DNA of 64,000 nucleotides from assembly GCA_951406725.2 (NCBI GenBank), contig OX597817.1:86552001-86616000 (forward strand). The letters run 5' to 3'. The notes beneath the pieces are model-generated. The model searched no databases and had not been told where the DNA came from. It saw nothing but the letters and a program-made list of their open reading frames with translations. A program made the translations under genes and the position numbers. This document shows, in pieces, positions 46,209-47,183 of the stretch (its first letter is position 1; every line of letters starts with the position of its first letter). Source of the stretch: Octopus vulgaris. Its lineage: Eukaryota.

Positions 46209-46533
46209 TCATATATATATATATATATATATATATATATATATATATATATATATATATATATATATATATATATATATATATATATATATATATATAT
46301 ATATATATATATGGTACACCACCGTTGTATAGCCCTAGGAAGCATCGACGCCTCCTGATGGCTTTGACACATTTTTCCCTGTGTCCTTATATACATTTAC
46401 GAAGGGAGACAAACACCCCCGGCCGCCGGAGCTGCATCTAGGGACACGTGTTTCAGGATCATTGTTTTTCATCGGCCTAGAGTAGCAGACACCGGTCAGC
46501 TGGCGATATTTGTCTCGACTTCGTATTGTATAT

Positions 46534-46580
46534 ATCTAGGCCGATGAAGGACAATGATCCTGAAACACGTGTCCCTAGAT
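46534..46580 (+). ncRNA. Minimal type I hammerhead ribozyme (CCGAUGA variant)
   Basis: atctagg CCGATGA agga-caatga-tcct GAAA c-acgt-g TC cctagat; all three stems paired. Confidence 0.88.
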
Positions 46581-46903
46581 GCAGCTCCGGCGGCCGGGGG
46601 TGTTTGTCTCCCCTTCGTAAATGTATATAAGGACACAGGGGGAAATGTGTCAAAGCCATCAGGAGGCGTCGATGCTTCTTAGGGCTATACAGCGGTGGTG
46701 TACCCCCCTACTGTCACGTTCGTGTTAGATTGACAGTATACAACCATTCTATCGCCCCACCACCGTACATGTATCTACAAGAGATTTAGAAATTTAGTAT
46801 TAGTATTTCTTATTTTGATAATCAGTGAATAGACTTCACTGAATTATAGATATATACAATACGAAGTCGAGACAAATATCGCCAGCTGACCGGTGTCTGT
46901 TAC

Positions 46904-46948
46904 TCTAGGCCGATGAAGGACAATGATCCTGAAACACGTGTCCCTAGA
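46904..46948 (+). ncRNA. Minimal type I hammerhead ribozyme (second tandem copy)
   Basis: tctagg CCGATGA agga-caatga-tcct GAAA c-acgt-g TC cctaga. Confidence 0.88.
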
Positions 46949-47183
46949 TGCAACTCCGGCGGCCGGGGGTGTTTGTCTCCCCTTCGTAAATGTATATAAG
47001 GACACAGGGAAAAATGTGTCAAAGCCATCATGAGGCGTCGATGCTTCCTAGGGCTATACAGCGGTGGTGTAACCCCCTACTGTCACGTTCGTGTTAGATT
47101 GACAGTATACAACCATTCTATCGCCCCACCACCGTACATGTCTCTACGAGAGATTTAGAAATTTAGTATTTCTTATATATATA

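What the first reader, a model, noticed from the sequence alone, without database searches (positions are those of the whole stretch)
46313..47175. Intact hammerhead-delimited 369-nt tandem element: a candidate self-cleaving, circle-forming retrozyme
Seen: a non-coding 369-bp unit in head-to-tail tandem inside (TA)n. Each copy has a fully paired minimal type I hammerhead (tctagg CCGATGA agga/tcct GAAA c-ACGT-g UC cctaga) with predicted cleavage after 46573 and 46942, so a read-through transcript would release a 369-nt monomer. An inverted partial copy sits on the 5' side, and the copies are near-identical, so the insertion is young. Known: PLE terminal repeats and metazoan non-LTR retrozymes carry such minimal hammerheads, which work as dimers through a palindromic loop III and can yield circular RNAs. 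Inference: this is a recently active, protein-free retroelement mobilised in trans by a PLE RT.
Basis: partly seen in the sequence, partly recalled or inferred. Interest (0 to 1): 0.88.

Follow-up and report, generated by a model that had tools for sequence, protein, structure and literature searches.

The report
Octopus hammerhead retrozyme, Penelope-type insertion
This is one copy of a widely scattered, protein-less repeat with a hammerhead ribozyme motif that is predicted to cut itself; its copies end at two fixed points in TA repeats as Penelope-type jumping genes do, so such an enzyme likely copies it, and a second, one-gene jumping element sits again and again at one spot just ahead of the ribozyme.

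Summary
Real, and mostly as described, but a new member of a known class. The stretch is a 226-bp inverted arm plus a 641-bp forward arm (1.7 units) in (TA)n, with type I hammerheads predicted to cut after 46573 and 46942. The family is dispersed (2,420 first-look candidates). In 64 loci, 90 of 99 outward 3' ends fall at +179 or +233 from the cut and none at the cut; 29 of 35 two-armed insertions have one of each. This is the Penelope-like element (PLE) 'tail' footprint. No copy joined a PLE reading frame, so it is a non-autonomous non-LTR retrozyme; its helper PLE was not found. Stems covary across sister families, each with a different loop III palindrome. Corrections: the core is the U4C variant (88 of 97 copies), reported to lower activity; the inverted copy's stem II is broken; the tandem copies differ at 8 of 222 sites, so the insertion is not brand-new. 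Beyond the finding: an ORF1-only Tx1-like element inserts with a 17-bp duplication 12 nt ahead of the ribozyme and travels with the unit. Cleavage, circles and expression are untested.

The parts
46211..46312 (.). (TA)51 target microsatellite, left
46313..46538 (-). Inverted arm: unit positions 274-369 then 1-131 (numbered from the predicted cut). Its outer end at 131 is atypical (family rule: 179), probably trimmed later (inference). Joined head-to-head to the forward arm over 4 shared bases
46437..46481 (-). Third hammerhead copy, stem II broken (AAAA for AGGA); likely inactive
46535..47175 (+). Forward arm, 641 bp: unit 331-369, a full unit, then 1-233
46535..46579 (+). Type I hammerhead 1 (stem I 6 bp, stem II 4 bp, stem III 2 bp plus ACGU loop inside the palindrome ACACGUGU, U4C core); predicted cut after 46573
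46574..46942 (+). 369-nt monomer between the two predicted cuts; folds into a long rod that extends stem I (-130.5 kcal/mol, z -7.2 linear; z -5.7 as a circle)
46845..46856 (+). TATA-like box TATAGATATATA, candidate internal promoter (inferred)
   Evidence: sequence; spacing to cassette target
46875..46891 (+). 17-bp site that is duplicated around the ORF1-only Tx1-like cassette in other copies; empty here; candidate transcription start zone
46904..46948 (+). Type I hammerhead 2, same sequence as 1; predicted cut after 46942
47122..47175 (+). 54-nt 'tail' between the short (+179) and long (+233) family ends
47176..47184 (.). Remnant of (TA)n target, right

Best explanation
This is a dispersed, non-coding hammerhead repeat with two fixed 3' ends in (TA)n, likely a non-LTR retrozyme that a Penelope-like reverse transcriptase/GIY-YIG endonuclease copies in trans from uncut RNA. 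Shown: family, anatomy, ends, targets, covarying RNA structure, no attached coding frame in the loci sampled. Inferred steps: (1) RNA polymerase II starts about 25-45 nt after the TATA-like box, just ahead of the ribozyme, and reads through the tandem; (2) two hammerheads pair through the loop III palindrome and cut slowly (U4C core), releasing a 363-369-nt monomer that would be ligated into a rod-shaped circle; (3) a PLE protein nicks (TA)n on one or both strands and starts reverse transcription inside the RNA at +179 or +233, runs back through the intact ribozyme junction for often more than one unit, and stops at random, giving a partial tandem with or without an inverted second arm that uses the other start site. 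Whether the template is a circle or an uncut linear read-through is open (about even odds). A Hydra-clade PLE is the weakly favoured helper.
For: Ends: 48 at +179, 42 at +233, 9 elsewhere and none at the cut, of 99 ends in 64 loci; 29 of 35 two-armed loci have one short and one long end and none has two alike; a TA or TC repeat follows 41 of 48 and 34 of 42; 29 free 5' ends are scattered from 2 to 346. This matches PLE partial tandems, inverted 5' copies and a one-sided tail (10.1101/2021.04.23.441226, passages) and the two internal RT start sites that define the tail in vitro (PMC11167929). No PLE frame joins the unit: Neptune-like fragments near 3 loci are cut off by unrelated sequence, and the one Hydra-protein hit (E 6e-5, L005) is a short weak match. 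Covariation: 9 of 12 hammerhead pairs change on both sides across 8 copies of 5 families, 0 of 500 shuffles as high, slid controls at most 2; 10 of 33 pairs in the extended stem across 17 copies of two sister families; loop III stays palindromic in different letters (CACGTG, CTATAG, CTGCAG, CATGCATG, CGCG, CATG). Copies inside one insertion share family-polymorphic alleles: 114 of 127 (tandem) and 120 of 143 (inverted) against 16% between loci. Size and design match mussel retrozymes of 350-390 bp (PMC7229834 section 14). Intact PLEs with (TA)n ends exist in the genome (781-aa Neptune-like, 837-aa Hydra-like).
Against: U4C is in 88 of 97 cores and is said to decrease activity considerably in vitro (PMC3088659, passage); A10.1-U11.1 replaces the usual G-C pair. 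25 of 97 copies have a non-palindromic loop III (CACGGTG-type), so a perfect palindrome is not required in the family. Isolated hammerhead folds are not more stable than shuffles (z -0.6 to -1.4 for 56-57 nt) and the predicted structures do not form stem III. 8 of 9 Xenopus retrozyme dimers did not cleave in vitro (10.64898/2026.07.22.740005), and PLE insertion in vitro did not need hammerhead cleavage. No PLE sharing the unit's sequence was found among 50 GIY-YIG loci, 38 Hydra-1 loci and 30 Hydra-2 loci; only a short AT-rich end motif resembles Hydra-1. The allele-sharing test cannot separate a circle from a homogeneous tandem source, and pairs are not independent. Sampling took the best-scoring 40 candidates per search, which favours long, similar copies; the sister hammerheads were picked with a pairing-based scan, which inflates covariation.
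Confidence: 0.7

Rival explanations
1. PLE-mobilised non-autonomous repeat whose ribozyme is crippled or irrelevant: the template is uncut linear read-through RNA from tandem source copies, and no circle is made.
For: U4C fixed in the family while the older sister family keeps CUGAUGA; every sampled insertion keeps intact junctions; unprocessed RNA was the main substrate for a PLE in vitro; only 5 of 64 arms exceed two units; few rare variants are shared inside loci (6 tandem, 9 inverted).
Against: Stems and palindromes covary across families; the rod-like monomer is far more stable than shuffles; U4C kept a viroid infectious; 50 of 64 arms exceed one unit (biased sample), which a purely truncating linear route would tend to lose (inference).
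Confidence: 0.2
2. Solo pseudo-LTR fragments of a coding PLE that has not been found; the unit has no life of its own.
For: Same ends and tail as PLEs; 24 of 57 Xenopus retrozyme families match Repbase TEs, nearly all PLE ends; searches scored only the best 40-150 candidates.
Against: The unit closes on itself head-to-tail through a non-coding 135-nt spacer that is conserved in the older sister family; 0 of 64 and 0 of 30 sister loci join a PLE frame; the PLE hammerheads seen here have longer stem II designs unlike this one.
Confidence: 0.07
3. The repeat is the terminal part of the ORF1-bearing element (a protein-coding retrozyme or LINE), or a DNA-level minisatellite.
For: 1.7-kb ORF cassettes are joined to the unit in many loci and move with it.
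Against: The cassette has its own poly-T start, AATAAAGAT end and 17-bp duplication, re-inserts in tandem at one site, and sister cassettes sit in unrelated targets; most unit copies lack it; fixed ends and inverted arms are not minisatellite behaviour.
Confidence: 0.03

Closest known systems
Metazoan non-LTR retrozymes (coral, mussel, axolotl; PMC7229834, passages and section 14 read) and vertebrate families (10.64898/2026.07.22.740005, parts 1-3 of 5 read)
   Same: Non-coding unit of about 360-370 nt, one canonical type I hammerhead per unit, short palindromic helix III, highly self-paired monomer, co-occurs with PLEs.
   Different: U4C core; mostly dispersed 1-2-unit and two-armed insertions rather than long arrays; RNA, cleavage and circles not shown here; cephalopods not among the species named in the text read.
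EN+ Penelope-like elements (Hydra, Neptune, Penelope/Poseidon; 10.1101/2021.04.23.441226 passages; PMC11167929 parts 1-2 of 4; PMC4209133 parts 1-2 of 4)
   Same: Partial tandem, 5' truncation, inverted 5' arm, tail on one end, (TA)n targets, hammerhead in the terminal repeat.
   Different: No reading frame; tail 54 nt against 30-40 nt in the paper and about 37, 30 and 80 nt in three PLE families of this genome; canonical rather than long-stem-II hammerhead.
Non-autonomous Chlamys PLEs such as MRC1 (passage)
   Same: Non-coding, pLTR-forming, head-to-tail insertions.
   Different: Those share 3' ends with known autonomous partners and mostly lack hammerheads; no partner identified here.
For the nested cassette: target-specific Tx1-clade LINEs (Tx1 in Tx1D, Keno in U2, Tx1-Mar in Mariner; PMC4494074 passages) and ORF1-only HAL1 elements (recalled; search listing only)
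   Same: CCHC ORF1-like protein, poly-T start, AATAAA end, 12-18-bp duplication, tandem re-insertion into another repeat; an APE-RT-zf frame lies at a sister target.
   Different: Target is a hammerhead retrozyme, apparently at its start site, and the filled unit is then moved with PLE-type ends.

Membership tests
Non-LTR retrozyme | Small non-coding unit in tandem with a type I hammerhead in each unit | tested here: met
   two consecutive complete motifs in the window
Non-LTR retrozyme | Multicopy family independent of a coding element | tested here: met
   2,420 first-look candidates; 0 of 64 loci joined to a PLE frame; best-scoring sample only
Non-LTR retrozyme | Highly self-paired monomer | tested here: met
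   z -7.2 and -5.7; covariation
Non-LTR retrozyme | Self-cleavage of the transcript | not testable with these tools
   needs an in vitro assay; U4C predicts slower cleavage
Non-LTR retrozyme | Accumulation of unit-length circular RNA | not testable with these tools
   only assembled contigs were served, no raw RNA reads
Type I hammerhead ribozyme | Conserved core CUGANGA / GAAA / UH | tested here: inconclusive
   all positions met except U4, which is C in 88 of 97 copies; U4C is a described natural variant
Type I hammerhead ribozyme | Three helices with stem I open, supported by covariation | tested here: met
   stem III pairs never vary, so they carry no covariation signal
Type I hammerhead ribozyme | Rfam RF00163 gathering score | tested here: not met
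   18.2 bits against 34
PLE-mobilised (non-autonomous PLE) | [quoted passage not shown] | tested here: met
   90 of 99 ends; 29 of 35 two-armed loci
PLE-mobilised (non-autonomous PLE) | 5' truncation, partial tandems, inverted 5' arms, microsatellite targets | tested here: met
PLE-mobilised (non-autonomous PLE) | 3' end shared with an autonomous partner | tested here: inconclusive
   no homologous PLE end in 118 PLE loci; short AT-rich motif like Hydra-1
Autonomous PLE | RT plus GIY-YIG reading frame between the repeats | tested here: not met
PLE min-HHR (PMC4209133) | Helix II of 7-8 bp, unpaired base after A9, helix I of 4-5 bp | tested here: not met
   6-bp helix I, 4-bp helix II, no extra base
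Tx1-clade target-specific LINE (nested cassette) | Fixed target with duplication; ORF1 with CCHC; RT phylogeny | tested here: inconclusive
   target, duplication and CCHC-like ORF met; an APE-RT-zf frame lies beside a sister cassette; no RT tree was built, so the clade name rests on resemblance

The most novel reading that the evidence does not exclude
A three-layer parasite system: a circular-RNA retrozyme with a deliberately slow U4C hammerhead is written into (TA)n by a Hydra-type Penelope enzyme from two internal start points on one ring, and an ORF1-only Tx1 element targets the retrozyme's transcription start, borrows its promoter, and is then spread inside the ribozyme-delimited unit by the Penelope enzyme, so a LINE protein gene travels on a ribozyme-processed RNA.
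Probability: 0.3. Interest if true: 0.75.

Novelty: new member of a known kind. Interest (0 to 1): 0.45.

Why it matters
How animal retrozymes get back into DNA has been argued from co-occurrence and phylogeny; here the insertion footprint (two fixed internal ends, one per arm, none at the ribozyme cut) ties them to PLE chemistry and gives exact RT start sites to test in the existing in vitro PLE assay. The fixed U4C core is a natural test of how much cleavage a retrozyme needs. The nested ORF1-only element extends Tx1-type targeting to ribozyme repeats and may mark their promoters. The class itself is known, and this locus is one ordinary, slightly damaged copy among many hundreds.

Tried and rejected
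Expression: no RNA holder listed on record; runs guessed to be RNA hold the unit only as short contigs, which show no start, end, strand or circle junction, so they are not used as evidence. The much higher summed depth on unit 1-233 than on the spacer in one run first suggested a coding partner; it is better explained by 5' truncation and an older sister family with a diverged spacer (2,349 candidates). A loose-end motif led to one chimeric mini-insertion and a paralogous empty site, not a partner. Helper search: GIY-YIG loci gave Neptune-like families, a Hydra fragment fused to a cassette led to Hydra-1 and a window fragment to Hydra-2 (its ends lie beyond the 1.5 kb fetched); none shares the unit. 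Tail length does not pick a helper. Rare-variant sharing inside loci was too sparse to decide circle against linear. No A-to-G excess stands out among rare variants (38 A>G, 30 T>C of 328). Rfam on 6 kb gave only microsatellite-driven microRNA matches. No tRNA gene nearby. Earlier-findings look-ups by sequence and by all words were blank; one search concerned another ribozyme topology and was not used. Literature searches listed no paper on an octopus retrozyme or on a Tx1 element targeting retrozymes; the octopus repeat paper has no hit for 'ribozyme'. Repbase and subscription papers were not searchable, no supplements were read, and bioRxiv supplements are closed, so a family entry may exist there.

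Full report
1. Observation. The element runs from 46313 to 47175 between (TA)51 and a short TA remnant. It is an inverted arm (46313-46538) joined head-to-head to a forward arm of 641 bp. Numbering from the predicted cut, the forward arm is unit 331-369, one whole unit, and 1-233; the inverted arm is 274-369 and 1-131. Both forward copies carry the same type I hammerhead with a 6-bp stem I, a 4-bp stem II and a 2-bp stem III inside the palindrome ACACGUGU; the inverted copy has lost two stem II pairs. A strict descriptor hits twice in the window and never in 100 shuffles. Rfam RF00163 matches below threshold. The core is CCGAUGA (U4C). The tandem copies differ at 8 of 222 sites, and the window's pieces carry about 12 substitutions in some 820 bases against the family majority. 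With the rate used for octopus repeats in PMC13282606 (passages) that would be roughly 4 million years; this is an inference with a borrowed rate.

2. Family. The genome is 2.8 Gb and octopus-like (the cassette protein's only database relative is from Octopus bimaculoides). The unit has 2,420 first-look candidates; the 40 best full-length or near-full-length matches are 90-100% identical and lie on more than 20 contigs. I mapped 64 distinct loci from three searches (L011 and L012 look like one duplicated locus). Of 99 outward 3' ends, 48 lie at +179, 42 at +233 and 9 elsewhere, none at the cut; 29 of 35 two-armed loci have one of each and none has two alike; TA or TC repeats follow 75 of those 90 ends; 29 free 5' ends are scattered. 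These are the PLE hallmarks described in 10.1101/2021.04.23.441226 (passages), and PMC11167929 (parts 1-2 of 4) shows in vitro that the tail marks two internal RT start sites and that uncut RNA is the main template. The sample is the best-scoring part of each search and favours long copies.

3. Coding partner. No locus joins the unit to a PLE frame; Neptune-like fragments near L011, L113 and L114 are separated by unrelated sequence. The genome holds intact 781-aa Neptune-like and 837-aa Hydra-like PLEs (Hydra by the DKT and CxCX5C motifs, Pfam gave no hit). Their ends do not align with the unit. Hydra-1 ends in AATATTTATTAT where one subfamily of the unit ends in AATATTTCTTAT, and one locus fuses a Hydra fragment to a cassette-bearing unit. 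That is a lead only.

4. RNA structure. The monomer folds as a long rod extending stem I (z -7.2 linear, -5.7 circular). An older sister family with a canonical CUGAUGA core is homologous over the whole unit; across 17 copies of both, 10 of 33 predicted pairs change on both sides. Across 8 copies of five hammerhead families, 9 of 12 pairs do, and loop III stays palindromic in different letters. The sister motifs were recognised with a pairing-based scan, which inflates this. U4C is in 88 of 97 copies, and 25 of 97 have a non-palindromic loop. PMC3088659 (passage) says U4C lowers activity considerably in vitro yet kept a viroid infectious. PMC4209133 (parts 1-2 of 4) describes this 6/4/1-2-bp design as the canonical metazoan dimer-acting form, distinct from the PLE min-HHR, and proposes circles as templates.

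5. Template. Copies inside one insertion share family-polymorphic alleles (114 of 127 tandem, 120 of 143 inverted, 16% between loci), so both arms come from one template lineage. This fits one circle but also a homogeneous tandem source. Since no end lies at the cut and junctions are intact, the cut linear monomer is not the template.

6. Nested element. L017 and L118 led to a 1.7-kb cassette with one 453-aa frame (CCHC knuckle; nearest Atlas clusters mollusc CCHC and ZCCHC3-like proteins). It sits at unit 302-318, which is duplicated on both sides, and re-inserts in tandem. In 27 loci (overlapping, and found with a query containing the junction) 32 of 34 cassette ends are followed by this site. 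With the protein alone as query, 18 of the 30 best loci adjoin the unit, including the 17 best; the other 12 lie in other targets. Diverged cassettes lie just ahead of four other hammerhead families and in non-ribozyme repeats. The duplication starts 24-37 nt after a TATA-like box in this unit and in four unrelated targets; it was absent in 4 loci and my junction calling failed or met another cassette in about 10 of 32; no shuffle control was run. Filled units have the +179 or +233 ends, and some are truncated inside the cassette with no unit upstream (L009, L156), so they likely moved as one RNA. An APE-RT-zf frame, broken by frameshifts, precedes a cassette at a sister target and is the likely helper type. 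PMC4494074 (passages) lists Tx1 targets in DNA transposons, snRNA genes, microsatellites and LTR elements, not ribozyme repeats. The window copy has the site empty.

7. Verdict. A real non-LTR retrozyme with a PLE insertion footprint: a new member of a known kind (PMC7229834, passages and section 14; 10.64898/2026.07.22.740005, parts 1-3 of 5). Cleavage, circles, promoter and helper are inferred. Earlier notes of this scan, seen only after my own analysis of ends and cassette, report the same picture for other copies in this genome; they are not independent support, and their claims on snRNA-type promoters and RNA edits were not confirmed here.

Noticed in passing
L141:5718-9200, L150:1620-3350, L208, L224 (own genome): ORF1-only Tx1-like cassette inserted with a 17-bp duplication 12 nt ahead of the hammerhead, in tandem at some loci; 12,420 first-look candidates for its protein.
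   Followed up: yes
L193, L199-L207, L209, L219, L223, L228: Sister cassettes start their duplication about 26-37 nt after a TATAAA in unrelated repeats, as if aimed at transcription starts (no control).
   Followed up: partly
L226:4836-4880, L228:5787-5831, L229:4234-4279, L230:5675-5717, L231:9143-9185, L049:21-63: Four more type I hammerhead repeat families, two with the U3-A8 or U3-G8 core variant, each with its own loop III palindrome.
   Followed up: partly
L270:1460-1640: Mini-insertion made of unit 315-386 (whole uncut hammerhead) joined to the cassette's AATAAA tail, flanked by a short duplication; looks like a LINE template switch onto retrozyme RNA that begins near the predicted start site. 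L271 resembles the empty site.
   Followed up: partly
L224:4460-6050: Hydra-clade PLE fragment with an inverted hammerhead-bearing arm fused to a cassette-bearing retrozyme over a few shared bases.
   Followed up: partly
L262:2209-4722; L061:1745-4090: Intact, multicopy Hydra-like (837 aa, tail about 80 nt) and Neptune-like (781 aa frame with an upstream ORF, tail about 37 nt) PLEs.
   Followed up: partly
window 62836-63702 (+): 3' fragment of a second, very young Hydra-like family (150 scored matches at 92-100% aa identity, 20,059 candidates) with a microsatellite-rich 3' region.
   Followed up: partly
window 47185-47997: Pif1 helicase fragment on the minus strand (PF21530) with a hairpin-CTAG end; probably a Helitron piece that landed in the right-hand TA repeat (Helitron label recalled).
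   Followed up: partly
window 45880-46210: Repeat between two TA runs that looks like an octopus SINE (recalled, not tested).
   Followed up: no
window 7505-8011, 12410-13189, 22707-23093: Decayed PLE fragments unrelated to the element.
   Followed up: no
window 47991-48701: 166-bp tandem array, 97% matches.
   Followed up: no
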